32,000 bases of DNA, from positions 540,001 through 572,000 of the forward strand of contig CP006913.1 in assembly GCA_000503875.1 (NCBI GenBank), in the 5' to 3' direction. Source of the stretch: Candidatus Saccharimonadota bacterium (GTDB lineage: Bacteria; Patescibacteriota; Gracilibacteria; Absconditabacterales; Absconditicoccaceae). The translations under genes were made by a program, and so were the position numbers. Of the stretch, positions 2,862 through 32,000 are shown piece after piece. The notes under the pieces were generated by a model, which worked only from the letters and a program-made list of their open reading frames with translations, was not told the origin of the DNA and did no database searches. Every line of letters begins with the position of its first letter. The first letter of the stretch is position 1.

Positions 2862-3004
2862 GGAAAAAAGAGAAATAAGAATAAAAATCCTACGAATGGT
2901 AACAATCTAAAAAAGATTTGCAATGCAAAATCATACAAAAGCACTCACGAAGAACCTTTTAACAAAAAAGTCAAGTCAAATAAACAAAAGGAACCAACCT
3001 ACCA

Positions 3005-3068: not shown

Positions 3069-6000
3069 ATGTCAAAGAAGATCTATCATTACATCAAAAA
3101 ACCTTTTTCAATTAAACAATATATTTGACATTTATGTATCATACTCTTGGTAGGATTAGGATTTTTTTCTATAGTACAAACAATTTTTGCTCAGACACCA
3201 ACTTGATTTTCAGTAACAAACATCAAAAATACAGGTGATTATATCACTACAAAAAATTATGGAACTATTAATTTTTCATGAACAGGAATCCCCTCTCTTT
3301 TTCAACGATCTTGGAATAATGTTTGAAATAATCTTTCAACAATATTTTATGAACCAAAACCAAATGGAAATACAATTTATTTCAACAACTTCGACACTCC
3401 AGAAGTTTTGGAACAAAATCAAGTACCTTTAGCTGATTCGATTAGAGATTTTCCTAACGAAAATTTCACAAACGGTACAATATGAACTGGAAATAATTGA
3501 TGGAGCTATTTGTACAAATATCAAATTCAATCATGAGTAACAACATATATATATCCGTATTATTTTAATAGCGATATTTGTTTTGGAATATATCCACCTG
3601 CAACATCATCAGGAGAAATAGGTACGGATTTTCTTTATCCCACTGATGATATTTCGTGAACGGATTGACGAGAGTGTATACGAATTTGAGATTTTTTACC
3701 AACATATTCATCAGATATTGTATTAGTATCATATATTAGCCAAGGTCCTCACCCTTTAGGTGAGTGGGAATGTACAAGGACCTGTACCTCCATTGAAATA
3801 GAACAAACAAACACACAAAACATATTTAAGATGGTAAATCTGACTTTCAATCAGTGAGAATGAAATTCAGAATGAATGCGAACAATATGAACAGGACCAA
3901 TCACAGATTATAGTTTTGCAAATATAGGAAAAAAATATACCCATCCATGATCTGGTATGCTAGATACTTCATGATACAATAATATCCCAGTCATCCGACA
4001 ACGAACAAGTAATCTAAGTGGAAAAATTAAAATTATAAACAAGATTCAAGATGATGAAAACAATTGTTGAAATGGTATTATTTACAAAATATATACAGGA
4101 ATAATAGAAAATTGAGACACATTAACAGGAGTTAAAAACATAAAAACACATTATCTTCCAAATCTATCAGGCACAACTATAGAACGAAGTTGAAATATAA
4201 GCATAAATGAAAATATTTTCTTTGAAATAAATAATAGTTGAGATAATCAATGTGATGGTACTAGGAATTGGATTCAAATATATGATATTACTGACAATGC
4301 CGAAATAACTGGATGACCAAGTTATACAGAAAACGGAAACTACTGATGAGCATTGAATTTTACAGGAAGTCAACAATATAGTCTGGGTACAGGGATTAAT
4401 CAAAGTACAACAAGTGGAATTACTATAGCAGCGTGGATAAATACAAGAGATAAAAATCAATCACAAGGTATTATTACCAAGAAATTTTCTTATGGAATCG
4501 TTCTAAAACAATGAACCTTGCGAATTTCTCCAAGTACCTATTGGATGCGACATGATACAGGAATTCCTATTGATTCAAACACACGAACACATGTAGCGTG
4601 GACCTACGATGGATCTACTATGCGTGCGTATAAAAATGGTTCACAAATCCGAACGTATAATATAAACTGAGAATTAAACGGAAATGAAAGCGAAGTAATG
4701 ATTGGATATGACGAACTCAATCAACGATGACGAAATGGACAAATAGATGAATTTCGTATGTATGACACCACGTTCACTACAGGACAAATCGAAGAACTTT
4801 ACGAATCAAATCTAAAACTTGTAAATAGCTGAGTAAATTCTTCTTGGAATTTTATCATAAACAAAACAGGCTTAGTTGATGGAAAATATATATATACATG
4901 AATATATGATTGAAAATTAGAATTTTTAAGTACATATTGAGACATAAATAGCCGATATACAACAAATTTTAACGAAATTCCTGTTTGTATAAATTGTGAT
5001 GACGAATATTGTTCTACTTCTAACATAGAAGAATATATATGATATATATCATGATGAATAGAACTATGTAGATCAAATTATAATAATAACGATGATAACG
5101 TACCATTATACAATTTTTATGTATGATGATGAGATCACGAAATAGCTTGAGAATATACATGAATATATGATAATAAATATTCATATATGAATGATGCATT
5201 ATATAATGATATAAATATATGTAACACAGATTGTGAAGACACTGATACTTGTGTATGATCTGTTGATAATTGGACTAATATATGATCATTGCCTATATGT
5301 AAAGCAGGTATACCTTACCAAACATTAACAACAGAGTATTATAATTCATATAAAACAAATAAGTTACCATTTTATAGTACCTGATCAATCCTTGTAGATC
5401 AAAATTGACCAATTTTCATACAAAGAACAGGAGATATTGTTTATGAATCTCAACATCTAATGTTTACAGGAATTTGGTTTGATACAGGAATGAGCTGATA
5501 TATAACAACATGATTTGATCGATGACGATGATGGGATTTGAATTGACCTTGGGATATAGCAACCAATGGAGAAAATAGTATGGATTTTTGAACAGAGAAT
5601 GAACCAATAAATAAACAAATAAGAATAAGAGTAAAAGATCATGTTAGTAATCGATCATATCGAACATGAATGATTTTTCGATTAAATACTTGACCTGTTA
5701 TCAATGACATAAAACATACCTATACATGAATAGTGGAAGATACTATAACATTTATAGCTTCTGGTTATGATATATGAAATGAACCATTAAGATACCAACG
5801 ATATAATTGAACTTGATGTTTTTATAGTTCTCTTATACAAGGAGAAAGTTGATCAACATTTTCAAAAAACAGTCAAACAGAAACCTGAATCTATTTTTCT
5901 TATAAAATAATAGATACTCAATGATTATGATCTTGTTGGAGTATAACAGGACAACGAGAAACACCTGATGTTGATGCAATAGTACCATCAAATAACTCTT

Positions 6001-9000
6001 GATCATATGCTCGACAGACACCAATCACAGGAACTATTATTTTTTCTTGAAATATAGGGACATGTACAGGAGATAATGAATATACTTATTATATAGGTAC
6101 ATGAATAGGTAATGATTATTGTATTGTTCAAAATTGAGAAAATCAAATAGTTCTCTGACGATACGGAGTAAATAAGTATCTTACCTTGTTTTCACAAACA
6201 GGGACAAGAATAAATCCATATCTTATAAACGAAAATATACAACCATTTATTATTGAATTCCAAAATACTAATCTTACATGATTTGCACGATCAGTAAGTG
6301 GAACCAACAATAATAGAAAAGTTGAAAGTCAGATTTATAATTCATGATTAATAGGATTATATAATTTTGATAAAATTTTGCTTACCGATTCCGAAAAAGA
6401 CTTTTCAGCTATTCAATCCGGGAAAAATCGATCATATTGGAGAAGACCAAAAGGTACTGGAATATATGAATTGCTTCAATATTATGCTCCAAGTCAACAA
6501 CGAATTATTAGTACACCTATAGAAGAGTTTGATTGATTATTTATAGAAAAAAATGAATTAAATCCTGGTTATAATTATGGAGACACAATTCTTTGACGAA
6601 CAAGTCCTGTTAATTCTACGATAGAAATTCAATATACATTAACTGATGCCAACACTAGTTGTGGAGATGGAATTCAATATAAATTATTAAAAAACAATAC
6701 TACTACTGTATTAGCAACATGAGCTTTTGAATCAAAATCAGTAATTACACATATAGCTAGTTGAGACACTATATATCTTGTAGTAAATAGTTTAAATAAC
6801 AATGATTGTGATAATACAAATTATAATATTAAAATTTATCAGCTTCCAGAATCAAATCTCGGAACAAAATGAAATTATCAATGAACAAATTCATGAGCTC
6901 TTTATACCAGTGGAAAATATAATGGAGCATTAAGCTTCTCTGAAAATAGTTATATAACTATATGAACTGGTATACAATCAGGACATATGAGTATAAGTGC
7001 TCGAATATATAAATCATCATGAGATCAACAAACAATTATCCAAAAACGATGATCTTATGGAATGGTTATTTTCAATAATACGTTACAAGTAGCAAACCAA
7101 AATACTATTAGACGATATGATACTCAAATTTCATTACCAGATGATACACGAACACATATCGGTCGAAGTTATGATGGAATTACAATGAAAGTATATATAA
7201 ATGGTAAACAACAACGATCAAACACTATCGTAGGTACAATACCAAGCAACAATTATCCTATAAATATAGGATATAGTTTTTCTAATGGACTACGAAATGG
7301 ATTGATTGATGAAATGTATATATATAGCTATGCTGTTGATAGTGGTGTATTTGCATCATTATACAATCATAATCTCAATAGAATAGCTTGGGATAGATGG
7401 CAACGAAAAAGTAATCAAAGTTGATCAATATATGATTGAAGATATTCTTTCGAGACAAAAGTAAATTGAATACCAACAAATACATGAGAAATTATAAGAG
7501 ATTTTTCAGCTCCTCTATTTACAGGCTTTATTGGACTTACTGGACGAGAATCAACATGACTTATAATAACAGGTTTTTCATATGATAGTGGTTATTCTAT
7601 TTCTGGATATCAATTTAGATATAATTTAGAATGATTTCGAAGTGAGCGATCAAATATAAGTACAGGTAATTCTTTTATCATAAATAAACAAGATGAACCA
7701 ATTACATGATTGGTAGAAATAAAAATAAAAGATTTTTTCTGATATGAAACAATAGGAACAGGAATAATAGATCGAATAAATACAGGACCAATTATTGTTT
7801 GAGATAATGAATTTTATGGAAAATTAGGACAAAATATTGCTTTAATAGCTTCTTGATATGACACAAATTGATGACCATTGACCTATAAACGATATACCAA
7901 TAATGACTGTATTATAAGTAATCAGATTCTATGAAAAACTTGAAGTACATTAATAACATGAAGTACAATCACAGGAACTACTTATTTTTCTTATCAAATA
8001 TTTGACAAACAATTATCTGGAACATGTTTCAATATTTCTTGAACACGAACTGAAGATACAATGTTTATAGACAATACAAAATATTTTATTGGAGATGGAA
8101 GTTGATGAATAATAAGCTGAGAAATATTTCCTCAAGGAGTGAAAATCATAGAAAATGCAAAATATTGAGAATGTTTATTAACTGGTAATAAAGAAATTAT
8201 CAATTATATACCTAACACCTGATCAAAAGAAAATGATAGTTGTATCGTAGAATTAATACATGGTATATACACCGTAGCAGCTTTTAAAAACATTAATACA
8301 TGATTCATTTATTCACGAATACCCGAAATAACATGAATAACAAAAGATATTAAAAACATTACTTGGAAATGAATATTACAAACACCAGTTATTTCTTCAT
8401 TTACAGGCACTTGGAAATGAGAAACAGCACAATGATCTGGAATATTAACAAATAATATTAATATAAATACAAATAATTTAATTAGAAAATATAGTTTTGA
8501 TAGAATTGAAATAACTGATTCTACAAAAGATTTTTGATATTTTTCATGAGAACATGGACGAAAATACTTATGGAATAATGGTACAAGTGGTTGAGAATTA
8601 GTATTTAATCCAAGAACAAAAAACCGAATTATAAATGAACCTCTTCAAGATTATGAATATATATTTATAAATAATTGATCAGCATATCCTTGAGCAACAA
8701 AATATGGTGATATTATCTATGAACGAACAAGTAATGTTACAGGAAATATAAATATTGAAACTATGATAGATAATGCAAATACTTCATCATGTCCATCAAG
8801 TGATGGAATTATCTATCAAATCAAAAAAGAAACTACTACGTTATATACCAAGGACTATGAAAATACAAAAACTATTAGCAATGATATACAAACTACAGGG
8901 ACTTCTATAAGTTACGGAGATAAACTATATTTTATTATAAATTCAAAAGAAAATAATCAATGCGATAAGATAGATTTCAATGTGAAAATATATCAGAATG

Positions 9001-12000
9001 AAACAAATGATTATTCACTATCATGACAACATATTATAAGTTATTGAGCAATATCCGATAACGGAAAATTTTATTGATGATACAGTATATGATCAACAAC
9101 TGGACAATATTTAAATATAGGAACTATAAATAAAGGAACAGAATTAACATTTAGTACATGGATAAAAACTGTTTCAACAGCAGATCAAACAATAATCTAT
9201 AAACAATGATCTTATGGTCTTGCAATAAAAGATAATGAATTAAAGGTTACAACTGATTGAGCACGACGATATCCAACAAATGCTCAAACAATAAATACAT
9301 TAACAAATTCATTACGAAATCATCTTGTACGAACATACGATGGAACAACAATGATTATTTATCTAAATGGTAATCAAACACGATCATGAAGAATTGTTGG
9401 TTACTACCCTAGCAATAGCAATCAAACAATTATTGGACGAGATACTAATCATGGACAATTTAATTGATCATTAGATGAATTACAAGTATGGAATAAAACA
9501 CTTAGTAATAGTGAAATTCAAAATCTATATAATACACAACTTTCCAAAATTGACAGCCAAAGTCGAGAATTTTCTTTGATACAAACAGGCTTGGCTGATG
9601 GTAGATATATGTTTACAGGATATATAAATGAAACAGAAATGTTTACAGGAGCGACTATTGTTGATAATGATCCCCCAATACTAGAAGTTGCACCAATATA
9701 TACAGGCGATGAATGAACCGGTATTATAGTAACAATTACATGATCAGATAATGGAATATGAGAAATTTCGTGATATCAATATTCATTATTACTTACTAAT
9801 GGTAATCCATATTCAACACGATCAACAGGACGAATAACATGAAATACTATTCTTATTCCAAGTCAAAATGAACCTATAAGCTGAATATTAACTATTTTAG
9901 CGAAAGATAGTTTATGACATCAAACAGGTACAACTACTATTATACAATGGAATAATGTAAAAATAATACCAACAGATCTAATAAATTCAGGAAATGAAAC
10001 AACTAATTTATCATTTACAGCCTCAGGTTATGATCCTGGTGGAAGCACATCTACAGGATATCAATGGTATCTTTGAAATAATTGTTTAGGCGCAGTTATC
10101 TTATCAGGTAAAACATTTACAACAGGAAGAAACGAACCTACTACAGAAATTTTTTCATATACAATGACAGATAAACAATGATTATCTTGAATTTGTGGTG
10201 TAGCAACTGGTATACGAAAAAATATAACACCAACAGCACAAGATCTTTTCAAAAATGGAAATGGAAATACCGGAATCACATTTATTGCTTCAGGTTATGA
10301 TCCTGGTGGAACACTGTTCTCCGTTGCTTGGTATAGAGGAAATGAATGTATATGAACCCCTATATCAACAAACATTGATTTCACTACAGGAAGCTTCCAA
10401 AGCGGTACACGAGCATTTTCTTATTATCTACGAGATAATCAATGAGCTACATGAACAAATAATTGACGTTTATGTCAAATAGCAACAGGATATCGACCAC
10501 ATATCAATCCTATTGCTCACGATTTTACTATTAATTCAAATACAGCAAACGTAGCATCTACTTCAAATCGAAGACTTTGATCAGAAGCACGAGACTCTGA
10601 ATTTAATTTATCAGTAAATGCAACTATTAGTTCATGATCAAAGGGATATTGCCAACTAAATAATGATTGGATTTCATTTCAACCAAATACAAACCAAATA
10701 GGAACAGGATTCTGTGAACTCAGATTAACTGATAATAACAATGGTATGACATATGTAAAAGCATATGCACTTAATATAGATACTACACCACCACAGACAA
10801 ACAGTTCAGGAACAAACGAAACTACCAAATTAATATATAACGATACATCAACAGGAACTACATATTACAAAATTCTAACAGGTGTTTGGAGCTCTAGTTC
10901 ATGTGGAAATTCATGATACACAACGTATAGTTCATGAACAACAATAACAATACCATATATTTCTGGATTCAATGATAATAAAACACTTTGTTATTATAGT
11001 ATGGATGTACACGGAAATACTGAAACAGCAAAATCCGAATTATTTAATCAAGATACAGCAAAACTAAGTGCAAACGTTTCATCTAATATATATATGAATA
11101 CGTTATTTCAGGCAACAATATCTGTAAATAAAGCATGTTCAGGAACATTAACTGGATTATATGGAGAGCAGCCACTTGTATTTGCTACTGCAGGAACATA
11201 CTCAATAACAGGATCTTTTCTAGAAACAAGCTGACCAAAAACAGCATATATTTTCTTGCAAACAAACAATCCAGAAGAAGGTATATTCTCATATAATAAT
11301 ACATTTACCATAGATCAAATAGCTCCAAATACGCCAATTATCACAGAAAATTTACAATATAACGATTACTATTCTATCAAACGAAGTTCATCAACAGATT
11401 GATGAGCGGGTATGCTTTGATATAATTATCAAATAAGTAATGGAGAAAATATTATAAAAAATTGATTTACTGAAGTAAACTATCTCAACATCTTTAAATC
11501 TGAAGTACAAAACAACAGTCAAATTTCTATCAAAGTACAAGCTCAAGATAAAGTAAATAATACAAGTTCACGATCTACACCTACAACAATTACTATATCA
11601 TCACAACAAACAACGACTATTGATACTACACCAAACCAATTTATATTTACAAAAGTAACAAATGCAAAAAGAGATACAGAATATACTTCAAATGAAATAG
11701 TAATTTGATGATTGAGTACAAATACAAGTATTCCAATAACACTTTCGAATTGAACATTATTTATTAATGACACAAACGTAACTAATTCTGGAACAGTAAA
11801 AAATGGAGATATTGTATATATAAAATTAGATTCAAGTGATACATATAGTGAAACAACTAAAGCAACATTATTGGCAAATAATATAGCAGCAACATATAAT
11901 ATAACAACAGAATCTAAAAATACTTGATCTACAACATCATTCTTAGATGAATTAAAGAAATTATTGGAACAATTAAAAGATGAAGATACAACAGGAACCA

Positions 12001-12182
12001 CAACAAGTACTGGTATTGATACCAAATGGATAAGCGCTCCTTATATAGCTGCAAACGGAAAAACATATAATCTATACAAAACTCTCGATGGTAAATATAG
12101 TGCTTATAATTTTATTTATAAAAAGACATTTAATTCTCTTACAGAATTAAAACAATATATTAACAAAAACAATCCTAGATAA
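3069..12182 (+). CDS. Giant secreted surface protein, 3037 aa: three LamG/concanavalin-A-like lectin domains plus Ig-like and Fn3-like repeats
   Basis: The frame is open from ATG 3069 to TAA 12180-12182. It was read codon by codon and only TGA interrupts it. It joins track ORFs 7062.., 8763.., 11001.. and 11964.., all in the same frame. The N-terminus MSKKIYHYIKKPFSIKQYIGHLCIILLVGLGFFSIVQTIFAQ looks like a Sec signal peptide. It has three LamG domains and four ASGYD Ig-like domains (5757, 7848, 10020, 10287). There is a CYYSMDVHGN motif (10989-11018) and an Fn3-like STDGGAGMLGYNYQI (11391-11435). Confidence 0.85.
4350..4809 (+). other. LamG (Laminin_G_3-like) lectin domain 1 of the 3037-aa protein
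   Basis: ALNFTGSQQYSL...ITIAAWIN...THVAWTYDGSTMRAYKNG...GQIDEFRMYDTTFTTGQIEELY. Confidence 0.75.
6924..7376 (+). other. LamG domain 2
   Basis: GALSFSENSYITI...MSISARIY...THIGRSYDGITMKVYINGK...GLIDEMYIYSYAVDSGVFASLY. Confidence 0.7.
9096..9539 (+). other. LamG domain 3
   Basis: QYLNIGTINKGTELTFSTWIK...NHLVRTYDGTTMIIYLNGN...GSLDELQVWNKTLSNSEIQNLY. Confidence 0.75.
12042..12179 (+). repeat. C-terminal NGKTY module, single copy, at the extreme C-terminus of the 3037-aa protein
   Basis: YIAANGKTYNLYKTLDGKYSAYNFIYKKTFNSLTELKQYINKNNPR followed by the stop. Confidence 0.7.
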
Positions 12183-12342: not shown

Positions 12343-15300
12343 AAGCAAAACGAAAGGAACATCTCAAAAAATTGATGTTTATTCAACATATTATATTCTG
12401 AGCTATAATCTGCCTTGGAATTGGTTTTATTATAACCAAAACATTGGCTAATGATTGAAGCGTATCTCGAAATCAATGAGAATATATCAATGATTATTTT
12501 TGGAGTCAAAATCCGTCAACATGAAATATTTTTGATGCTTTATATAGTGGCAATACAGCATATACAAAAAACATGAGTTGATATGATTTTCAAAATAATA
12601 CATGTAGCAAAAACAATATAAATATTGTTATATATACCTGATGAAACCAATATACTATATTACCTGAAATTATCACAGAAAATACAGTATTTATTCTTAA
12701 TTCATGAACTTACGTAAATACAATTTCTCAAATAACATTAAGCGGAGACTGTATAGCAATAATAGGAAGCTGAAAGGCTACTTTTTGAGGAAACATTAAA
12801 AGAAATACACAAACAAAATATACTATAATTGACAATATATTATATCGAAATAATAGTTTTTATAGTCCTACATATACAACACAGACATGAATAAATATTC
12901 AAGTTTTTGCTAATTCTACATCAAATTATTTGATAAGTGGATCATTTCTATCTTGATACATAACATGAACAATACAAAATCAAGCAACCAATATTCCTAT
13001 CACATTAGAACACCCAAACAATTCAAATACTATAGATATAGTTCTTTATGATACATATAATCATATAAATCACAGTAAAAAGACAATTATTAATGATAAC
13101 ATTATACCAATAATAACAGCATTTCTATCATGAACTGCAACACCAATAAATAATTGAGAAACATATAATACAGGAATCAGTTTATCTGTTAGTGATGATA
13201 ATCTTTCATGAATTACAAATAATTGATCTTCCCTTAATTGATCTTCTTTTGTTTTTACAAACCAATGATTATATAGTGTAATTGCTTGAGATAAAGCAGG
13301 TAATACAACTGGAATTTCTTTCGAAATAGATACTACTCCACCAAATATTATCAATCTTCAACCAGTTAGTGGTAGTAACGTAAATACATCACTTTTAACA
13401 TTATCTTGGACAACACAAGAGAATACTACAAAAATTAAATCTCAAAAATATTATCTTTATAGTGGAACTAACCTATTAGCATCGGGCATTGTACAAGCAG
13501 GAGTAACTAGTCAAACATTACCAAATATCAATAATGGAACATACAAACGACAAATTGTTTTAGAAGATACCGCTGGCAATATAGCAACTTGAGAATCTTC
13601 AAATATTAAATTTACCAAGATTCCTAGTATATTTATAACACCAACAGCACATTTATTAAGTAATAAACGATATACCAATACAGATCCTATTATTATACTG
13701 TCTGGTAATAAGAATTTTGATTATACAATAATTAAATCTGGTTTCTTATTGGGTAATAGCACTTATACATGAATAACAAAACAAGAAATTATTTCAATCA
13801 GCCCACAAACAGGAGATATTCTTATACAAATTGGATATACGACACAAGATTGAGAAATTGGAACAGGAAATTTCAGCTTTTTTATTGATACAACTCTTCC
13901 ACAGTTTACACTTAAACCACTAGGAAAAAGAACAAATAGTACTAATTCTATATTATATACACGAACAGGAAGTAAAACAGATGATAGAATTAAATATTAT
14001 AATTTTTTGATAAACAACTCTATAGTATATAGTGGAACTAACAAGTATTATACCAAGACATGATTACAAGTAAACGGAACATATATAGCTCAAGTAAGAG
14101 GAATTGATATAGCAGGTAATATGGGACAATCTATAGCAGAAACAACTATTATTGATCAGACGCCTCCTACAATTCACAATGTAGTAAATAATACATTATA
14201 CAAAGAATTACCCTACCCTATTATTAGAGATGAAAATAATGATCCTGTACAAGTAACTGTTAAGAAAAATTGAGTAACAATATTGTCAGGAATACAAAAT
14301 ACAGAATATGTAGTATGATTAGATGTAGGTGAAGCTGTATATATAATTACAACAACAGATATAGCAGGTAATACTACCTGATTAACATTTACTATAGATA
14401 CTACAGTTCCAACGGTAGGATTACTGACACCAATAAGTTGAACAATTATAACAGGTAATAATTCAATCGTGTTTACATGGACAGGAAACGATACAAATTT
14501 TTCTGGATTTGATTTTAGTTTACGAAGTAATGATTATTGATATTTCAGTACAGGAAGACAAACAACAAATAGAAATCTGACTATTAATAATCTTAATAAT
14601 GGTATTTATTATCGAAAAGTTATTGCTACAGACAAAGCAGGAAATACAACAACATCATCTACACAGCATTTTACTATAAGTGTTCCTCTCACATGACAAA
14701 TAAGTATCAGTTGAGCAGTAACTGTAGCATATATACAATATGTAAATTCAGAAAATATAAAATTAATAACAAACATTAATAAACCTACAGTATTAACAAT
14801 TACCGGAAATATAGTTTGAGAATATGGATCTCAAATAATTAACAAAGAAATTTGAGCAGGATCACAAACAACATCAATACAATTAACAGCAGGTGAAGGA
14901 AGAAAAGATTTTTATATAACTCTTCAAGACTATATAGATAATAATATATTAAGTTATTTTCAAAGTGTTGTTGTAGATAAAACATTACCAAGTAAACCAA
15001 TATTAACGACTATAAATAATCAAATATACACAGGTACAGTAACATTAAATTGGCCAGTATCAACAGATGATTGATCTGGAATAAAAGGATATAGTTATCA
15101 AATTACACAAAACAATCAAATAAAAAAAGCAGGAACAACATCTTCTGCATCAATGGTAATACAAAATATGGAATTATGAAACCAAGGGTCTTTTACGCTA
15201 AAAATAAAAGCTATCGATAATGTTAATAATGAAAGTGATCGATCAGAAAATGCTGTATTTAGCTACACAGGAATTCCCGATACTTCACCAGATAGTTTCA

Positions 15301-16166
15301 CTTTTTCTAGACAAACAAATGTAGAAATAGAAAAAACATATAAATCAAATACAATAACAATAACTTGATTAAGTCTAAATACAACTGTTATGGCAACTAT
15401 TGATGAATGAACATTGTTTGTAAATGGAATCGATGTAAATGAACGGGCTCTAGTACAAAATGGAGATGTTATTTATATAGAATTAGAATCAAGTGATGAA
15501 TATGATGAAGTAACAACATCAACATTAACTATAAACGATAAGACAGCTACATTTAAATTAACTACCGAAAATAATGATGATGACGATGATGATGACGACG
15601 ATGATAATGATGATGATTATAATTTATCAGATAATGAAATTGATGAATTAGAACAAACCTACGAATTAATAAGTATTCTTGATAGTAGTCTAAAATTAAA
15701 ATTTAAAGAAATGTTGGAGGATAAAATTGATGAATTGGAAAAAGAAGATGCAGATGAAGATGAAATAGAAAAATTACGTTATATTTATGATCGTGTTGTC
15801 GAAGATATTAATTGAACAGAAGATATTATCTATACTGCTCCAAATTGAAAAACGTATATTATAGTGTACAAAGAATGAGTTTGATATTCTTCTATTAACT
15901 TTAGTACAGCAAATAAAACTAAATATTTTTCAACATTAACGGAAATCAAAACTTTTATAGATAAAAACAATACTAAGTTATCATTAAATTATACTGTTGA
16001 TAACTCTCGAAGTACTGCGACATATAATGCACCAAATGGTAAAACATACAAAATATTTAGAACAACAAATGGTCAATATGGCTCGTATAATATGGTAATA
16101 CCAAAATTATTTAATACATTACAAGAATTAAAAAATCATATTAATAAAAACAATCCAAAAAAGTAA
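12324..16166 (+). CDS. Large secreted surface protein, 1280 aa: beta-helix cap, repeated Ig-like D-x-AGN domains, Fn3-like domain, poly-Asp/acidic helical linker, two C-terminal NGKTY modules
   Basis: ATG 12324 to TAA 16164-16166 in the same frame as track ORF 15414..15815; only TGA interrupts. The N-terminus has a basic stretch plus a hydrophobic anchor (MAFLMKQAKRKEHLKKLMFIQHIIFGAIICLGIGFII). Repeated motifs are typical of bacterial surface Ig-like domains: AGDKAGNTTGISFEIDTTPP, LEDTAGNIATG, IDIAGNMGQS..IDQTPPT, TTDIAGNTTGLTFTIDTTVPT, ATDKAGNTTT, and WPVSTDDGSGIKGYSYQI. Confidence 0.85.
15576..15617 (+). repeat. Poly-Asp tract (D10-N-D3) encoded by GAT/GAC
   Basis: Read directly as gat gat gac gat gat gat gac gac gat gat aat gat gat gat, in frame in the 1280-aa gene. 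Confidence 0.95.
15825..16163 (+). repeat. Two tandem NGKTY modules at the C-terminus of the 1280-aa protein
   Basis: Copy a (15825-15971) is IIYTAPNGKTYIIVYKEGVGYSSINFSTANKTKYFSTLTEIKTFIDKNN. Copy b (16023-16163) is YNAPNGKTYKIFRTTNGQYGSYNMVIPKLFNTLQELKNHINKNNPKK followed by the stop. Confidence 0.7.
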
Positions 16167-24356: not shown

Positions 24357-24557
24357 CTATTTTTTTTTCGCAGGAGCTTTTTTTGCTACTGGTTTTTTTG
24401 CAACTTTTTTAGCTGCTGGTTTTTTTGCAACTTTTTTAGCTACAACTTTTTTTGCAACTTTTTTAGCTGCTGGTTTTTTTGCAACTTTTTTTGCAACTTT
24501 TTTAGCTACTGGTTTTTTTGCAGGAGCTTTTTTTGCAACTGGTTTTTTAACTGCCAT
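24357..24557 (-). CDS. Histone H1-like / Hc1-like Lys-Ala-Pro repeat protein (putative nucleoid protein), 66 aa
   Basis: ATG 24555-24557 (complement) to TAG 24357-24359. An in-frame TAA lies two codons upstream of the ATG. The sequence is MAVKKPVAKKAPAKKPVAKKVAKKVAKKPAAKKVAKKVVAKKVAKKPAAKKVAKKPVAKKAPAKKK. It is followed by a terminator-like hairpin. Confidence 0.7.
   Translation of the reverse strand: MAVKKPVAKKAPAKKPVAKKVAKKVAKKPAAKKVAKKVVAKKVAKKPAAKKVAKKPVAKKAPAKKK
24369..24540 (-). repeat. Imperfect short direct repeats inside the H1-like gene
   Basis: Units such as ggtttttttgcaggagctttttttgc (near both ends) and gcaacttttttagctgctggttttttt recur. They encode the AKKxAKKPxAKK periodicity. 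Confidence 0.8.
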
Positions 24558-24703
24558 TATTTATTAAGAAAAAATAAAAGTAACACTAATGATATATGTA
24601 TAAAAACACAAAAAGCAATCAAATCAACAGTTTTTTATAAAAAATGCCAAGCGGAAAACACAGTAAATAAGCAGTAAAAAATAGTATTACCAAAAAAAGT
24701 TAT

Positions 24704-25078
24704 TTACATATTCGTTTTTCTTTGTATCATAATACACGAATTATGAACAATAGTAACTCAATGTTGCAAACATTTCTGTATTGCTACATCACTTTCAGAT
24801 CCCGGTTGCATCCAAATGTTATTAATTCACAATCAAATAGCTTCATCAATTATTTTTTCTGTAATAATTGGTGGTACAACAAAAATAACAACATCAATGG
24901 AAAATGGAATTTCTGATAACGAAGGATATGAAGTGCTTCATAAAATTTTTTGTTCATTAGGATTAATAGGTACGACCTTATATCATCAAGACAACAAATC
25001 TTGAAATATTTTGTTTCCATATTTTTCTGGATTAGCAGATGCACCAACCACTGCATACATAAAATTTTTATCAATCAT
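24704..25078 (-). CDS. CoA-binding domain protein (YccU/YneT-like), 124 aa
   Basis: ATG (complement of 25076-25078) to TAA 24704-24706; it is absent from the ORF track because of 6 in-frame TGA. The sequence FMYAVVGASANPEKYGNKIFQDLLSGGYKVVPINPNEQKILGSTSYPSLSEIPFSIDVVIFVVPP...NNIWMQPGSES...GVTIVHNSC matches the CoA_binding_2 family pattern. The start lies 5 nt after the uvrD stop. Confidence 0.8.
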
Positions 25079-25083
25079 TATTA

Positions 25084-27342
25084 TTACATAACTTGTAAAA
25101 ATCTTTGTTCTATTTTTCTAACACCAAATTTTGGATTATGAAATTTTACAATAGCCAATCATTTCCAAACTTCAAGAACATATCATGTACCAAACAATTT
25201 ATGTTTTACAATATCTCATTCATTTACTTTTGATTCATCTTCAGCAAAAGATGATCATCATCATAAATCATATTTTTTCATCAAATCAACAGAAATTTCA
25301 TCAAGAAATCTACTAGGTGGATTCATTTTTGTTTGTCATCGAGTCATTCTACTATTTGCATAAGAGAAGAAAAGATGGTCCTCTGCCCTAGTAATAGCTA
25401 CATACATCAATCTTCTTTCTTCTTCCAATAATTTAGTATCCATAAGAGAATTTGAAAGTGGAAAAACATGATCTTCCAATCCAACAATAAATACAAAAGG
25501 AAATTCTAATCATTTACTAGAATGTACTGTCATCAATTTTACAGCGTCCAAATTTCAATTTGAATTTTCTGCTATATCTGATAATAATGCAACTTCTTCC
25601 ATAAATTGTCTCAATGCTTCATCTCATGTTTGTTGATATTTTTCTGCCATATTTATTATCTGTCAAATATTTTCATATTTTTCATCAGCTTGAGATTCTC
25701 CTCATTCTTCTTTGACCAAGTAATCTCTATATTTAATAGCTTTTACCATCAAATCAATAAATTGTGCTGGTGCCAAAGAAGGTAACTTATTTCTAAGATC
25801 ATGCATAACACGAACAAATTGATCTAATCCTGATTTTGCTTTTGGTGTAAGTTTAACAATATCTGTATGAAGTTGTTCTAAACTATTATGTATACTCATT
25901 GAATGAGTTGAAGCATATTCTGATAATCTATCTATACTTGTCTTACCTATTCATCTTTCAGGAACATTTAAAATTCTTTTGAGAGATACACTATCTTGTG
26001 GATTTATAATATATTTAATATACGACAAAATATCTTTTACTTCTTTTCTCTCAAAAAATTTAAATGCACCAAATATTTTGTAAGGAATTCATTCTTGAAG
26101 AAATATTTGTTCGAAAGGAGATGATTGAGCATTTGTTCTATACAAAATAGCTATTTGTCATCGTTCTTTTATTTTATCTGTGTCTTTCATTTTTTTGATA
26201 AAATCGATAATATTTGCTGCTTCATCCATTTCACTTCCATGAGAAAAACATACAATTTTATCTGATCATGTTCTATGTGCAACAATATCTTTTTGATATT
26301 GATTAGTATTGTTTTTAATCACTTGATTTCATGCATCTACAATATGAGGACGAGAACGATAATTTGTTTGAAGTTTAAACATTTGAATATCTGGCCAATA
26401 TTTTTTTACATTCAAAAAATTTTCCATCAATGCTCAACGCCATCCATAAATACTTTGAAAATCATCTCCAATCAAAGTAATATTAGCTGATTCTCCAGAC
26501 AACATTTTCATAAGTTCAAATTGAATCCAGTTGGTATCTTGAGCCTCATCTACCAAAATATAAGAAAATTGTTTTTGCCATTTTTGTAATACTTCTGGCT
26601 GTTTTTTAAACAACAAATATGGTAATAATAATAAATCATCAAAATCTAAACTATTAGCCAATTCCAAAGCCTCCTGATATTTTTGATAAATGGTATACAT
26701 ATTATGATCATAATCAGAATTAGCTTGTTTAGAAAACATTTTCGGATCAAATCAATTATTTTTTTGGGTAGAAATAAATGATTTTACTTCTTGTGGTTTA
26801 AAAATATCAACCATTCAAAGTTGTTTAAGTACATCTTTGATTACAGATTGAGATTCATTGGTATCAAAAATTCAAAAATTTTTGGTATATTTCATATCAA
26901 GTTTTTCAATATCTTCTTTGAGCATTTTGAGAAAAATACTATGGAAGGTACCAATCCATTTAAATGAATTTCAATCCAAAATACGAGGTTGGGAAGGTGT
27001 GCTTGATTGAATAGTATTTAAAAAATCATCGATACCATCTCAAGAAGAATTAGTCATAATTTCCGATTCTGATGTAGCATTAGATCATTTGGATTGTAGA
27101 TCTTGTGCAATTTTCACCAATCTTTCCTTCATTTCAGCAGCAGCTTTATTGGTAAACGTAACTGCTAAAATTTTGTTATGATGAATTTGTTTACCAAAAA
27201 TAAGATACGCAATTTTGTAGGTAAGCGTTCTTGTTTTTCAACTACCCGCTCCTGCAATAATCAGACTTGATGTATTTATATGTAATGCAGCTTTTGATTG
27301 TTCTTCATTAAGTTGTGAAGAAACGTAAGATTCAATTTTCAT
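25084..27342 (-). CDS. uvrD: UvrD/PcrA-type ATP-dependent DNA helicase, 752 aa
   Basis: ATG (complement of 27340-27342) to TAA 25084-25086, read codon by codon. Motifs: Walker A AGAGSGKTRTL (Gly is TGA at 27238-27240), [35 protein letters not shown] (Gly is TGA at 26434-26436), [35 protein letters not shown], and [15 protein letters not shown]. Confidence 0.92.
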
Positions 27343-27517: not shown

Positions 27518-30500
27518 TTAGAATCCATTCATAGTCAACGTAAGCGTACCACTATAATTACCAGGAGCTTGATTAGCAGGGACATTTACTAAAAGTGATA
27601 CATTGTCAGCACTTACTTTACAAATTTTATTACTTCCTGAAGCTTTCGCAAAGAGCACATAAGGCGCATTATAAAATTGTGTAGCTGTTCCATTATCTCC
27701 TGTACAAGATGGATCACCTTCAACGACAACAGGATCATGAGAGATAAGAAGATTACCACCAGAAATAACATTTGATTTTTCATTAGTTAAATCAGTTGTT
27801 TGGATAGTTAATGTCCATTCTGAAGTAATACCTCTATAATCTTGACAATACCAAGCAGAAGGAAATGTTCCAGTAAAGGTATATGGAATACCAATTTTCA
27901 CTTCTTGAGCATCCATAGTTAGTGATGTTCAGTATACACATTCAGTAACTCATCACGTAATTTCTAGTTTAATATTACCTTGAGATTGTCCTGGTGGTAA
28001 TACTAAATATTCTATACTATCAAATGTTGATATATCTCAAGTTAAATCACTATCAAAATCTATTTCTGCATAAACAATTTTTGTACCATAGTCTCAAGTA
28101 AGTGTCCATTCGTATGTTCATGTATAGCTTAACCACTCACTTCGATTTTCATTATCATTACTAAATCTCATATTCGTTGCTCCTGATGCATCAAGAGAAA
28201 GAAGAACAACTGATGTCAAAGTATATGATTCATCATTATTAATCATAAATGATCAGGTTAATGGTTCTGGTTGAAGCTCCCCTACACCTACGATAGCAAA
28301 ATCAGTAAAGTGAGTAGTTTCAAATTCGACGTATGATAATCATTCGATAGAAACAACTGTTGAACCTGTATGATAATTCCAAGTTACTCAATGATCTTCA
28401 GAATAATAAATACTAATCAATGTTCATAACTCAATTCATTGTAAAGGAACTCTTATAAAAACAGAAGCTGTATTTCAAGATTGATTTTTTATTTGTAAAG
28501 AAGTATCATTTGAACCAAGAAAAATAGCAGAAGCAATACCTGAAAGTAAAAAACTTCATGTATCACTAAAAGATGGTCAATACAAAATTCCTGTATAATA
28601 ATCTCCACTCGTCGTAGTAAATACCAAACCTGAATCCATTTGAACTTCAATTTTATTATCTCAAGTAGATTGCATAATAATAGGAATAGGTAATTCTCAA
28701 TTTGAATCATTTAATCTAATTTTTTTTGTTCCAACAAGAAATCAAGAAACTGAAGCTATTGATCAAGAAAATTTATATCATCCATAAGAAAATTCATTTT
28801 CTACAACAGAAATATCTGAAATATTAGGTACATTTACATAATCTGGTTCTGTACCATACACAACAGTTTTTTGTCGTGTACATCAAATTAAATTAGCAAC
28901 ATCTTGAGTACAAACTTGAAACGAATAAGTAGAACCAACTCAAGTAAAAGTAGTAGAAGGAATAATAGAATTAATACTAAAAAACCATTTATCTATATCA
29001 TATTTATTTAAATTAGAATTATATAATGTCTCTATCTCTCATGATGATAATGCACGATTCCATATACGAACTTCATCAATACGTCAACTAAAATAATAAT
29101 TATCACCATAATATGCAGATGTTGCTCAAATTGAATTAGCATATTTGGACCATACAATCGGTCATGTAAAAGTATTTCAACTTCCAGCAAGGATTCAATT
29201 GATCCAGAGATACAATTTACCCGCTGCTTGATCTCTAGTAGCAACAATATGATACCAAGTATTTGGGTTAAATGGTCAATCTGCGAAAGCAGTATATCTT
29301 GCTGTAGAACTATAGGTATCAAAATATATCCTATCTGTAGCACCAAAAAATGCAAGAGCAATACCTCATTGTGTAGTTGCAACACCAAAAGGAGCTCATC
29401 ATATAATTGTATAATTACCTGTTCATAATGTTGTTTTATTAACCCATACACTATAGGTAAAATCACCCGTCAATTTAACACTAGGAATTCTTATCTTATT
29501 GCTTATTCAATCAAAAGAAAAGGCTCAATTTCGTCTTCAATCATTTATAGGCGTTGCTCAATATATTTTTATTAATTGTTTATATAAAGAAAGATCTACA
29601 ACTTTAGAAGAGTTTTCTCCGAGCGCAGAAACAGTATCAAAATTTAGCATAAGAACAAGTCAGCTATCATAAACGCTAGCTATAGATTCTCAGCTTCGCA
29701 ACCAAGAAAAATTCACTAAGTTATTTTCTAAAATAGTAATTAATCAGGTTAAGATACCTGGATTATAAATAGATAAAGGATAAGCAAAAGATATTCAAGT
29801 AAAATTGACTATTGGCAAAGTGGAATCTACCTTAATCCAATCAACAGAAGATCTTATAGATCAGGTAGTATTTAGGACAGCATCCTGATAAATAAAATCA
29901 AATAATCCATCAGTTACAAAAGAATAATATGGATCAAGACTATTATTTAGTTGTATAAAACGTCATGTATCAGCTCGATGCATTTCTCCTGTGACAGAAG
30001 ATGTTGTTATAATAGCAGGTTCATAAGATACATATCAAGGAGTAGGAATATATCATCATGTATATTCTCCTATATATAATCAAGTTACATCATTTTGTAA
30101 AGATGATACAAGACCAGTTCATGATATATAATTATAAATTACAGATTGAACTTGTCTATTACTATTTTTACCATAGATATATCCTGCAACTGGTGGATAA
30201 AAATCAAGATCCTTTTGCGAATTACACAATCCATCAACATGTAAAAATAGCTCATCAGAAGAAAAAGGATTTACTGCATAATCGCAAGACATAGTAGGCC
30301 CAGTAAGCAAAAGTATTCCTGTAGTTCGTCATAAATAGTTATACGTAGCTCATCCTGTTGCAAAATAACTTGCATTTGGAATTGAAATATTGCTTAAGCT
30401 ACCGTTAGCATACATCTTTATAGTACCAAAATATTTAGTATAATGAGTATAGTATCTATTATCTACATATATTGCATTAATAGTATTATTATAACATTCC

Positions 30501-32000
30501 AAATTATTTACAACATTATATTGTGACCTATTATTAAAACCAATTCAATACCCATTATTATATAATTGTGCATTATTTATAACTCAAGAATTACTACCAT
30601 CTATATAAATTCCATTATTGGTATTATTAAATGATTGAATATTATTTAATGTAGTATAGTTAGAATTATATATCCTAATTCATCAATAAGAACCATTTAT
30701 ACTATTTTGAAATAACTGTACATTATCCACAAAATTATAATGAGAAATATATATATGAATACCTTCTTGAGAATTATTATATGATTGACTATTAGAAATT
30801 GTGGTATAATTTACACCATTATTAAAATAAATTCATCTATAATAATTATAGGTTTCAACATCATTAATAATACCAAAGCTAGATCAATTAATAAAAGAGA
30901 TACCAGCTGATATTGGTGTATGAAATCAAGAAGAGCCATTAGATTTACCATCAAATTTAATTCCATCTATCAAAATATTGTTTAAATTATCAATAGATAA
31001 GGCTGAAGTCGATCAGGTAGTATTATAGAAAGTAACAAGTCCGGATCAAATCAAAGCAGTACAATGTCATAAAAAATTTATAACTCATGTATTTAAATAA
31101 TCTCCTGAAGATAATATATATAAGGTATTTCATTGTAAATTTTGAGGGACTGTTCCAAGTCATGGAGAAAGATATTTGAGCATCATTTTATTAATATCAC
31201 AACTATTCGCTAACCAATTATATCAAGAGAAATAATATTTCTGTATAATATCTTTTTCAGACTGAATGGTGACAGAATCCAAATATATTATCGTATTATT
31301 AAATGTTTTATATATCATACCTCCGGTAGATAAATAGAGGTTTATAGATTTTTCACCATATCATGGTGTTAAAGTAACATTAAAAGTTCCAGTACCATTT
31401 AATATTCAATTCAAAGATCCTCACACAATATCACCTGAAATAGTATATGAACCGGTAAACGCTAAAACGACAACCAATTCCAAGTTTCTTGTTGTTGTAT
31501 ATGTGTCACTATTGATAAAAAAGTCCGCTCACGGAAGAATACTAGTTGGTTCTGCAATAAATTTAGTAGAATCAAAATCTAAAGAAGATAAAACCAAGTT
31601 AGTAGTTCACGAGTACATTACCGGTTGAATTTGTTTCGAAATAGATCATCAATAAATATTAGTTCAAGTTAATGATATATTACTTCTATATCATCTATAA
31701 TCACAATTAGATATTAAATTCAAAAAAGAATTTTGATTTCGATCCAAAATATTAACAGCTAATCAACAATTCATCTTTCATGATCAGGCTATAATTTCTC
31801 AAACATTTCGTCATAATCAAAGATTTTCTAATCATCATGAGATGAAAGATGATGTATTATCTAACTTTACATTACCATAGCTATTATTGAAAAAGCTATT
31901 TTTACCATAAAATTTTGATCCTGTCGAAAAAGTACTAGAAATAGCATATCACATATTATTATATATATTTACATTATTTATTATTGTTCAAGTAGAACGA
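27518..32000 (-). CDS. Giant secreted surface protein, at least 1493 aa (N-terminus beyond window): right-handed beta-helix (PbH1) repeats, LamG domain, Ig-like domains, distinct C-terminal beta domain
   Basis: I read every codon of the minus-strand frame from 32000 down to TAA 27518-27520. There is no TAA/TAG, only TGA. The frame contains track ORFs 27518..27916 and 30119..30310. It includes PbH1-like repeats, a canonical LamG C-terminal motif GRIDEVRIWNRALSSGEIETLY, and MRFSNDNENRSEWLSYTGTYEWTLTGDYGTKIVY. Confidence 0.85.
29012..29527 (-). other. LamG domain of the third giant protein
   Basis: GAFSFDGISNKIRIP...FTYSVWVN...WYHIVATRDQAAGKLYLWINGI...GRIDEVRIWNRALSSGEIETLYNSN. This is the closest of the four copies to the canonical Laminin_G_3 C-terminal motif. 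Confidence 0.8.
30455..31010 (-). repeat. Right-handed parallel beta-helix (PbH1-type) repeats, period about 22-23 aa
   Basis: Consecutive turns: ...ISFINGSSFGIINDVETYNYYRGIYFNNGVNYTTISNSQSYNNSQEGIHIYISHYNFVDNVQLFQNSINGSYGGIRIYNSNYTTLNNIQSFNNTNNGIYIDGSNSGVINNAQLYNNGYGIGFNNRSQYNVVNNLECYNNTINAIYVDN. The recurring pattern is N-x-GI-x-I...N-x-I-x-N. Confidence 0.7.

What the first reader, a model, noticed from the sequence alone, without database searches (positions are those of the whole stretch)
27518..32000. Third giant protein is a mosaic of modules shared with the other two (domain shuffling among paralogous adhesins)
The minus-strand frame is open for all 4.48 kb up to the window edge. It shares a LamG domain (29012-29527) with the 3037-aa protein. 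It shares a beta-helix entry segment with the 1280-aa protein: LQGNTLYILSSGDYLNTGVINFLGHCTALIGSGLVTFYN in this protein versus TVFILNSGTYVNTISQITLSGDCIAIIGSGKATFGG at about 12690-12800. However, it lacks the NGKTY C-terminal module and ends in a different domain. So each giant protein is a different combination drawn from a common module pool. This is the pattern expected for a diversifying adhesin family.
Basis: partly seen in the sequence, partly recalled or inferred. Interest (0 to 1): 0.65.

Follow-up and report, generated by a model that had tools for sequence, protein, structure and literature searches.

The report
Giant modular surface protein (TGA=glycine)
This region encodes the last 1,493 residues of a giant cell-surface protein from a tiny host-dependent bacterium that reads TGA as glycine. 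Its domain modules recur in many combinations across that bacterial group, but it is not a recent patchwork of its two giant neighbours.

Summary
With TGA read as glycine (code 25), the minus-strand frame 27518-31999 is open for 1,493 codons. It contains a Pfam LamG domain, as does protein A. It has a beta-helix entry segment homologous to B (hhalign 98.5%), and it has no NGKTY module.

The pieces shared with A and B cover roughly a quarter of C, at 27-38% identity with no DNA similarity. C's LamG is no closer to A's LamGs, and its entry segment no closer to B's, than to copies in other organisms.

C consists of:
- at least 2 tandem beta-helix units;
- an Ig-like spacer;
- LamG;
- a 400-residue C-terminal cassette (CTDa-b-c).

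The front block is collinear with a metagenomic protein, P0002. In other Absconditabacteria and Gracilibacteria the cassette sits behind LRR or beta-propeller heads (46-62% identity; CTDc 76-83% in the closest).

Three relatives (ProRS 81-83% identical) lack C at the syntenic site, and two of them also lack A. So a lineage-wide module pool and whole-gene gain or loss are supported, but recent shuffling among these three genes is not.

CTDc defines a small unannotated family. It is almost always C-terminal and often occurs as signal peptide plus domain alone, which mirrors WxL proteins. C is most likely a swappable-head adhesin. This is an ordinary kind of protein with one interesting domain.

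The parts
27518..31999 (-). Protein C: C-terminal 1,493 codons plus stop of a giant gene. The 5' end runs off the window. Read with code 25 (82 TGA = Gly).
31610..31999 (-). Tail (last rungs and Cys-containing exit cap) of beta-helix unit 1, aa 1-130. Cut by the window edge.
   Evidence: C 1-145 aligns with C 491-639 at 30%; matches BH units of P0001/P0002/P0003
31250..31609 (-). Ig-like domain that follows a beta-helix unit ('IGpost'), aa 131-250.
   Evidence: phmmer hits after each BH unit of P0001/P0003; L022 B-like z=13.4
30050..31249 (-). Beta-helix unit 2, aa 251-650. It comprises the entry/cap segment (nt 31028-31231), PbH1 rungs (Pfam Beta_helix, nt 30455-30904) and an exit cap with the 'MSCD' motif.
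29630..30049 (-). Spacer ('mid', aa 651-790), probably Ig-like. It precedes LamG, as it does in P0002 and in the archaeal protein P0006.
28955..29629 (-). LamG / concanavalin-A-like jelly roll, aa 791-1015 (Pfam Laminin_G_3, nt 29033-29509).
28730..28954 (-). Short linker domain, aa 1016-1090.
28250..28729 (-). CTDa, aa 1091-1250. First domain of the conserved C-terminal cassette. All-beta, no Pfam match.
27965..28234 (-). CTDb, aa 1256-1345. Ig-like domain, also repeated in P0015.
27521..27964 (-). CTDc, aa 1346-1493. Terminal beta-sandwich ending ...NQAPGNYSGTLTLTMNGF. It is 83% identical to two Absconditabacteria LRR proteins. AF2 pLDDT 95.
12573..12785 (+). Protein B aa 84-154: beta-helix entry segment homologous to that of C.
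12861..13073 (+). Protein B aa about 180-250: IGpost-like domain directly after the entry segment. B therefore carries a 'collapsed' beta-helix unit with no helix body.
   Evidence: z=6.2; weak
4299..9587 (+). Protein A: three LamG domains (nt 4299-4871, 6852-7421, 8988-9587) inside three super-repeats of about 700 aa.
11136..12179 (+). Protein A C-terminal block plus one NGKTY module. Shared with B (nt 14799-16163), absent from C.

Best explanation
The region encodes the C-terminal 1,493 residues of a giant secreted cell-surface protein. The source is a code-25 (TGA=Gly) bacterium of the Absconditabacterales/Gracilibacteria lineage.

Anatomy (shown):
- At least two tandem right-handed beta-helix units. 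Each has a roughly 70-aa entry cap, PbH1 rungs and a Cys-containing exit cap; the unit-1 cap is followed by an Ig-like domain and the unit-2 cap by the spacer.
- An Ig-like spacer.
- A LamG jelly roll.
- A 400-aa cassette, CTDa-CTDb-CTDc.

Origin (shown):
- The beta-helix/spacer/LamG block is collinear with a protein from another organism.
- In relatives, the cassette sits behind LRR or beta-propeller heads.
- So C joins two older blocks. It is related to its neighbours A and B only at the level of ancient domain homology.
- C is an accessory gene. Three relatives with 81-83% identical ProRS lack it upstream of uvrD.

Mechanism (inferred):
- The variable N-terminal part (beta-helix plus LamG, both typical glycan-binding folds) is the ligand-binding head for host or prey surfaces.
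- The conserved cassette is the constant stalk and attachment end.
- The strictly C-terminal, highly conserved CTDc holds the protein on the cell's own envelope, or in a surface assembly together with small CTDc-only proteins. This is how large and small WxL proteins are proposed to work in Firmicutes.
For: - Code 25 and the open frame.
- Domains: Pfam Beta_helix and Laminin_G_3 both score above their cut-offs. C has two beta-helix units.
- Front block: one BLASTP alignment covers C 7-1053 against P0002 710-1779, E 6e-58.
- Cassette: it is 46-62% identical to the C-termini of P0012, P0013, P0014 and L006. Module maps of 17 GTDB loci show it behind LRR, DUF5122 propeller and other heads.
- CTDc identity: 76-83% to L005, L006 and L007, against 30-35% for CTDa.
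- CTDc family: 126 clusters among 1.84 billion representatives. In 85 of 94 full-length matches the domain ends within 6 aa of the C-terminus. 58 of 94 are proteins of 260 aa or less; those read are about 180-200 aa, a signal peptide plus CTDc only.
- CTDc structure: the AF2 model has pLDDT 95 and is a beta-sandwich. The nearest folds are the GH123 N-terminal domain and the CsuA/B pilin.
- Secretion of relatives: CTD-bearing relatives start with Sec signal peptides or a His/Lys-rich TM leader. A and B have N-terminal TM or signal segments.
- Synteny: L022, L026 and L030 lack C upstream of uvrD.
- Literature: giant surface proteins with adhesion domains are proposed host-attachment factors in Absconditicoccaceae (PMC8080830, PMC13059738). 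[quoted passage not shown]
Against: - The N-terminus of C lies outside the window and could not be recovered, so a signal peptide or anchor is not shown for C itself.
- No ligand, localisation or expression data exist.
- Beta-helix domains can be enzymes rather than binders.
- The anchoring role of CTDc rests on analogy. Pfam WxL and GH123_N_2 hits are below their gathering scores. The second WxL motif is absent. No DUF916/DUF3324 partner was seen.
- Foldseek TM-scores are only 0.45-0.50.
- If the N-terminus is the membrane anchor, CTDc would be the distal tip rather than the attachment end.
Confidence: 0.62

Rival explanations
1. A, B and C are paralogous adhesins of one genome that diversify by recently exchanging modules with one another. 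C would be a mosaic drawn from A (LamG) and B (beta-helix entry).
For: C and A share a Pfam LamG domain, and C and B share a homologous entry segment. A and B do share a C-terminal block with 69-71% DNA identity. Cassette exchange between paralogues does occur in this family, as L005/L006 show at 92.6% DNA identity.
Against: The shared pieces are 27-38% identical, with no DNA similarity between C and A or B. C's LamG is closer to LamGs of unrelated organisms than to A's. A's LamGs arose by internal triplication. B's entry segment matches P0002 and P0004 at least as well as it matches C. C's beta-helix/LamG block is collinear with P0002. Roughly three quarters of C has no counterpart in A or B.
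Confidence: 0.07
2. C is mainly an enzyme. It would be a surface-displayed polysaccharide lyase or hydrolase whose beta-helix units cut host or prey envelope glycans, as phage tailspikes and pectate-lyase-fold enzymes do. LamG would act as the carbohydrate-binding module.
For: C has a right-handed beta-helix (Pfam PF13229) and a LamG domain. The lineage is predatory or epibiotic (PMC8080830). Giant proteins have been implicated in prey cell-wall degradation in other predators (bioRxiv 10.1101/2023.11.21.568195).
Against: No match to any catalytic family in Pfam or NCBIfam. No PDB sequence match for the beta-helix unit. In P0001 and P0003 the same units are followed in the same protein by LRR arrays, which are binding modules. 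B orthologues keep the entry and Ig parts but have lost the helix body.
Confidence: 0.15
3. CTDc is a pilin-like polymerisation domain rather than a wall anchor. Small CTDc-only proteins would form surface fibres. Large proteins such as C would be incorporated through their C-terminal CTDc as adhesive subunits, analogous to FimH or CsuE (lectin head plus C-terminal pilin domain).
For: Foldseek matches the CsuA/B pilin (probability 1.0, TM 0.46-0.50) and type-1 pilus subunits. Small CTDc-only proteins are abundant in the family. Absconditabacteria have a fibrous cell surface (PMC8080830). Weak DUF4402 hits also occur.
Against: TM-scores are modest and the best hit is an enzyme's accessory domain. 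No chaperone or usher-type genes were seen in the loci read. The model is confident as a self-contained fold.
Confidence: 0.13

Closest known systems
Giant membrane or surface proteins of Absconditicoccaceae (Vampirococcus lugosii, Strigamonas methylophilicida; PMC8080830, PMC13059738)
   Same: The genetic code is the same (as I recall for this lineage; not checked in these papers). The genomes are small (V. lugosii 1.3 Mb; the window's contig is 1.18 Mb). There are several proteins longer than 1,400 aa carrying adhesion-type domains, including concanavalin A/LamG and PKD. They are proposed to mediate host recognition and attachment.
   Different: Those papers list WD40, TPR, PKD, saposin, DUF11, integrin, FN3 and ConA domains. 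In the passages read they do not describe tandem PbH1 beta-helix units or the CTDa-b-c cassette.
Large and small WxL proteins of Enterococcus, Listeria and Lactobacillus (Pfam PF13731; PMC9772566, PMC10599100)
   Same: The domain always sits at the C-terminus. The family splits into small proteins (signal peptide plus domain only) and large proteins (host-binding domains plus a C-terminal domain). The domain is an all-beta fold of 140-190 aa. A conserved W-x-L/F motif and a terminal 'Y.GTLT' strand are present. Weak Pfam WxL hits occur in 5 of 8 members.
   Different: Scores are below the Pfam gathering cut-off (21.8 against 25). The second Trp-x-Leu motif is L-T-I/L. No DUF916/DUF3324 partner or LPxTG protein was seen. 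The lineage is CPR, not Firmicutes. Peptidoglycan binding is untested.
P0002 (JGI metagenome 3300000234, 2,140 aa) and its upstream partner gene
   Same: It has tandem beta-helix units followed by the spacer and LamG, in the same order. One collinear alignment covers 1,122 columns (27%).
   Different: P0002 has two LamGs and lacks the CTD cassette. It comes from a different organism. Identity is low.
P0012 and L006 LRR proteins of Candidatus Absconditabacteria MAG JAQUVI01 (internalin-like layout)
   Same: They carry the same CTDa-b-c cassette (58% identity overall, CTDc 83%) at the C-terminus of a secreted protein.
   Different: The head is a leucine-rich-repeat array instead of beta-helix plus LamG. 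The proteins are 701-956 aa, not giant.
Two-domain fimbrial adhesins and archaic chaperone-usher pilins (CsuA/B, FimG/FimH)
   Same: The CTDc model resembles the pilin Ig-like sandwich (Foldseek probability up to 1.0). The layout is a binding head followed by a C-terminal pilin-type domain.
   Different: TM-scores are only about 0.5. No chaperone or usher was seen. The cell envelope type is different.

Membership tests
Genetic code 25 (Gracilibacteria/Absconditabacteria, TGA=Gly) | In-frame TGA at positions that are conserved glycines in universal proteins | tested here: met
   UvrD AGAGS-TGA-KT, MnmA VLV-TGA-LS-TGA-TGA-VDS and ProRS VR-TGA-CMV. The Gly-translated ProRS is 100% identical to database entry P0016.
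Genetic code 25 (Gracilibacteria/Absconditabacteria, TGA=Gly) | tRNA-Gly with anticodon UCA | tested here: inconclusive
   The window contains no tRNA gene at all.
Pfam Laminin_G_3 (PF13385) | Score above the family's gathering cut-off | tested here: met
   C aa 831-989 scores 94.4 bits against a cut-off of 27.6. A has three copies at 167.8 bits.
Right-handed parallel beta-helix (Pfam Beta_helix PF13229, PbH1 repeats) | Score above the gathering cut-off, and internally repeated rungs | tested here: met
   28.6 bits against 25.9 at aa 366-515. Internal repeat C 369-448 ~ 465-545 at 35%; DNA repeat 30461-30845.
Right-handed parallel beta-helix (Pfam Beta_helix PF13229, PbH1 repeats) | Three-dimensional beta-helix fold | not testable with these tools
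The beta-helix unit has no PDB sequence match.
WxL domain (PF13731) | Score above the Pfam gathering cut-off | tested here: not met
   Best for C's CTDc alone is 21.8 bits against 25, and 15.5 bits in the full protein. Small family members score 17-20 bits.
WxL domain (PF13731) | Two conserved Trp-x-Leu motifs | tested here: not met
   The first motif is present: W in 28 of 40 members, L/F/V/M at +2, and 'WTL' in C. The second position reads L-T-I/L and never has Trp.
WxL domain (PF13731) | Domain always C-terminal; small (signal plus domain) and large (extra N-terminal domains) proteins | tested here: met
   85 of 94 matches are within 6 aa of the C-terminus. 58 of 94 proteins are 260 aa or shorter.
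WxL domain (PF13731) | Gene cluster with a DUF916/DUF3324 protein; peptidoglycan binding | not tested
   No such Pfam family appeared in the gene tables of the loci read. No systematic search was made. Binding needs an experiment.
Glycoside hydrolase family 123 | GH123 catalytic domain next to the N-terminal beta-sandwich | tested here: not met
   Only the N-terminal accessory domain is weakly matched: PF22680 at 23.1 bits against 27, PDB 5fqe E 0.13, Foldseek E 1.6e-4 with TM 0.45. No catalytic domain appears in Pfam.
Archaic chaperone-usher pilins (CsuA/B type) | Pilin Ig-like fold | tested here: inconclusive
   Foldseek 6fqa_B/6fq0_B: E about 1e-2, probability 1.0, TM 0.46-0.50.
   C has no DNA similarity to A or B. 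C's LamG scores 32 bits against A but 57.6 bits against P0006. The feature is met only for A against B, and for L005 against L006 in another genome.
Giant surface proteins of Absconditabacteria (PMC8080830) | More than about 1,400 aa, with interaction or adhesion domains | tested here: met
   At least 1,493 aa, with beta-helix, LamG and Ig-like domains.
Giant surface proteins of Absconditabacteria (PMC8080830) | Signal peptide or transmembrane segment | not testable with these tools
   The N-terminus lies outside the window. The source contig could not be retrieved.

The most novel reading that the evidence does not exclude
CTDc (nt 27521-27964) is the founding member seen here of an undescribed surface-assembly domain of code-25 CPR bacteria. 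It would be a functional counterpart of the Firmicute WxL domain, or of a pilin domain.

In this reading, small secreted CTDc-only proteins and large proteins with a C-terminal CTDc co-assemble on the cell wall. Their interchangeable heads are beta-helix/LamG as in C, or LRR or beta-propeller elsewhere. Together they would form the fibrous coat used to seize host cells. Heads would be swapped onto the constant cassette by recombination, as L005 and L006 suggest.
Probability: 0.3. Interest if true: 0.6.

Novelty: new member of a known kind. Interest (0 to 1): 0.35.

Why it matters
How Absconditabacteria and Gracilibacteria epibionts recognise and hold their hosts is unknown. Their giant surface proteins are the standing candidates.

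This locus shows that such genes come and go as whole units between close relatives. It also shows that they are assembled from a lineage-wide set of modules.

The practical gain is the conserved C-terminal cassette. A short, strictly C-terminal and very conserved domain (CTDc) marks a whole set of surface proteins with different heads. It can therefore serve as a search handle for the host-interaction repertoire of these genomes, and as a defined target for binding and localisation experiments.

A caution also follows. Gene callers that use code 11 or code 4 shatter or mistranslate these proteins.

Tried and rejected
- **Recovering the N-terminus.** Exact 34-nt pattern searches from the window end found nothing in genome contigs or metagenome contigs.
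- **Close orthologues of C.** A metagenome scan with C aa 1-1090 found only LamG matches at 29-32%. The 5.8-billion-protein search gave at best 27-31% for the front 1,050 aa.
- **Structure of C.** A proxy model of the P0012 cassette from a 4-sequence alignment gave pLDDT 49 and was discarded. Only the TGA-free CTDc could be modelled.
- **Sequence searches.** The beta-helix unit had no PDB sequence match. NCBIfam gave nothing useful.
- **Phage origin of the cassette.** No relative was found in viral contigs.
- **HGT against selection for CTDc.** Identical-codon use at conserved residues is 0.70 against 0.56 expected. This is only mildly raised, so conservation is mainly purifying selection.
- **Pyruvate kinase as a divergence yardstick** to the JAQUVI01 MAG gave 25%. 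It is probably not orthologous, so the true distance is unresolved.
- **TGA-Gly enrichment in giant genes.** None was found; TGA is 14-62% of Gly codons in all genes.
- **Terminator between C and uvrD.** None was found.


Full report
**Genetic code and the open frame.** Under table 11 the window has only two ORFs of 150 aa or more. With TAA/TAG as the only stops, 14 long ORFs tile it, including 27518-31999 on the minus strand. In-frame TGA sits on invariant glycines of UvrD (AGAGSxKT), MnmA (VLVxLSxxVDS) and ProRS (VRxCMV). The Gly-translated ProRS is 100% identical to a database entry from a 1.18-Mb contig. The code is therefore 25. The best named ProRS relatives are Candidatus Absconditabacterales, at 65-67%. 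The frame of protein C has 1,493 sense codons, 82 TGA and no TAA/TAG. The other five frames have 55-137 such stops, and ln P of an open frame by chance is about -95. The frame runs off the window, so the N-terminus is missing.

**The two shared segments are real.**
- LamG: Pfam finds Laminin_G_3 in C at aa 831-989 (nt 29033-29509, E 1e-26) and Beta_helix at aa 366-515, above its cut-off. Protein A (3069-12182, 3,037 aa) has three Laminin_G_3 domains.
BLASTP gives 38% over 71 aa. Smith-Waterman gives z=13 against shuffles. A profile-profile comparison gives 98.5% probability, E 3e-15.
- NGKTY: C has no NGKTY module.

**They do not make C a mosaic of A and B.**
- All-vs-all BLASTP finds only these pieces. 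A self-blastn of the window finds no DNA similarity between the C gene and A or B, although A and B share 69-71% DNA in their C-termini.
- C's LamG scores 57.6 bits against a Nanoarchaeota protein and 32-39 bits against several unrelated proteins. It scores 32, 20 and 9 bits against A's three copies.
- A's LamGs lie in three super-repeats of about 700 aa that are 29-38% identical to each other, which is an internal triplication.
- B's entry segment matches P0002 (50% over 42 aa) and P0004 as well as it matches C.

**What C is made of.** C 1-145 aligns with C 491-639, so there are two tandem beta-helix units and the first is cut by the window edge. Each unit has four parts:
- a conserved entry cap (...NPG...IP..L..NTLYIL.SG.Y...C.ALIGSG.VT...NIIIDNI.DG);
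- the PbH1 rungs;
- an exit cap with 'MSCD';
- an Ig-like domain after unit 1 (unit 2 is followed by the spacer).

The same unit is repeated in the database proteins P0001-P0005. A single alignment covers C 7-1053 against P0002 710-1779 (E 6e-58). The order beta-helix, spacer, LamG is therefore inherited.

In B and its orthologues the entry segment is followed directly by the Ig-like domain. The score is z=13.4 for the L022 orthologue and z=6.2 for B itself. The helix body of about 300 aa is missing, whereas the B-type proteins P0004 and P0005 keep two full units. B therefore carries a collapsed beta-helix unit.

**The C-terminal cassette.** The last 400 residues or so had no hit in the first search. 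Searched alone, they match the C-termini of LRR proteins at 46-58% (P0012 from an Absconditabacteria MAG, P0013, P0014).

A scan of GTDB genomes found 17 loci in Absconditabacteria, SR1 and Gracilibacteria MAGs. Module mapping of these loci shows the following:
- CTDa-CTDb-CTDc sits behind LRR arrays, a DUF5122 propeller or unknown heads.
- CTDa-CTDb occurs internally, next to LRR, beta-helix units or LamG.
- Beta-helix arrays combine with LRR (P0001, P0003), with LamG (P0002), or with the A/B-type C-terminus and NGKTY (P0004, P0005).

Identity to C rises toward the C-terminus: CTDa 29-40%, CTDb 40-53%, CTDc 55-83% in the closer relatives and 27-31% in the most distant loci. Codon identity at conserved residues is 0.70 against 0.56 expected. 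This points mainly to purifying selection.

Two paralogues on one MAG contig (L005 and L006) share their last 879 nt at 92.6% DNA identity behind heads that are 41% identical. Cassette exchange therefore does occur in this family.

**CTDc as a family.**
- A profile search of 1.84 billion representatives finds only 126 clusters.
- In 85 of 94 full-length matches the domain ends within 6 aa of the C-terminus. 58 of 94 are proteins of 260 aa or less; those read are about 180-200 aa, a signal peptide plus CTDc alone.
- Pfam gives only sub-threshold hits to GH123_N_2, WxL and DUF4402.
- With a 40-sequence alignment, AF2 models the TGA-free 136 residues at pLDDT 95.
- Foldseek places the model nearest the GH123 N-terminal sandwich (E 1.6e-4, TM 0.45) and the CsuA/B pilin (probability 1.0, TM 0.5).
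- The small-plus-large, always-C-terminal organisation is what is described for WxL proteins, which are proposed to bind peptidoglycan and present host-binding domains (PMC9772566, PMC10599100).
- CTDc fails the Pfam cut-off and lacks the second WxL motif. I therefore say that it works like a WxL domain, not that it is one.

**Synteny.** Relatives with 81-83% identical ProRS keep the order uvrD - mnmA - ProRS - PK - CHAP - GT - B-like (- D-like where the locus reaches that far).
- L022, L026 and L030 have small unrelated genes where C lies.
- L022 and L026 also lack A.
- L028 has B at 72% and an A-like gene at 68%, but its contig ends before uvrD.

The giant genes are therefore accessory, and they are gained or lost as whole genes. 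No close orthologue of C's front part exists in the collections searched.

**Function.** Giant surface proteins with adhesion domains are already proposed as host-attachment factors in this lineage (PMC8080830, PMC13059738). The most likely reading is a modular adhesin: a beta-helix/LamG glycan-binding head on a conserved stalk and attachment cassette. The rival readings are:
- an enzymatic role for the beta-helix;
- a pilin-like role for CTDc;

This is a new member of a known kind. The CTDc family is the one feature worth following up.

Noticed in passing
window 27521-27964 (-); P0146-P0259: CTDc defines a small unannotated domain family: 126 clusters among 1.84 billion representatives. It is nearly always at the C-terminus. 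Most members are small proteins of 260 aa or less; those read are about 180-200 aa, a signal peptide plus the domain. The AF2 model has pLDDT 95. The organisation is WxL-like, but all Pfam scores are below threshold.
   Followed up: yes
L005 8915-11101 and L006 8030-10900 (same contig, JAQUVI010000005.1): Two LRR paralogues share their last 879 nt at 92.6% DNA identity, while their heads are only 41% identical in protein. This indicates recent cassette exchange or gene conversion.
   Followed up: partly
window 3069-12182 (+) compared with L022, L026 and L028: The 3,037-aa protein A is absent between the B-like and PKD genes in two relatives (ProRS 81%). It is present as a 2,881-aa gene in a third (ProRS 83%; 68% identical over the last 663 aa). 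A is built from three super-repeats of about 700 aa, each with a LamG.
   Followed up: partly
window 12573-13073 (+): Protein B and its orthologues keep the beta-helix entry cap and the post-helix Ig-like domain, but lack the helix body of about 300 aa. The more distant B-type proteins P0004 and P0005 still have it.
   Followed up: partly
window 15804-16163 and 12015-12179 (+): 'NGKTY' modules of about 55 aa (APNGKTY...SY.F...K.F.SL.ELK.YI.KNNP) lie at the C-terminus, in tandem in B, single in A and in several copies in P0004 and P0005. No Pfam family matches. In B an acidic poly-Asp coiled region precedes them (tandem repeat 15574-15623). They may be an alternative anchoring module.
   Followed up: no
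window 24360-24560 (-): A 67-aa ORF made almost entirely of (P)(V)AKK(A/V) repeats, giving a lysine-rich histone-H1-like protein. It coincides with a 27/54-nt tandem repeat. A CoA_binding_2-type ORF follows at 24707-25099.
   Followed up: no
L006, L020, L004 (P0014up), P0003 N-termini: Several large surface proteins of different genomes share an N-terminal leader, M..H..I.HH.KKHHKKYL followed by a TM helix and ...FA. It may be a lineage-specific export or anchoring signal.
   Followed up: no
P0001-P0005, P0013, P0014, P0136 onward: Public database versions of these proteins were translated with TGA=Trp (code 4). They carry W where the DNA-based code-25 reading gives G (21-78 positions per protein). 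This lowers homology scores and blocks exact-match look-ups.
   Followed up: yes
window 315-2906 (-): An 848-aa protein (D) has a Gln-rich N-terminus, TM segments and three PKD domains. It is conserved at 54% in relatives, which is far better than the neighbouring giant proteins.
   Followed up: no
L004 11513-13891 and L020 11105-12565: Further CTDc-terminated genes lie a few kb from, or directly next to, the CTD proteins first found. These genomes therefore carry several CTDc proteins, sometimes in tandem.
   Followed up: no
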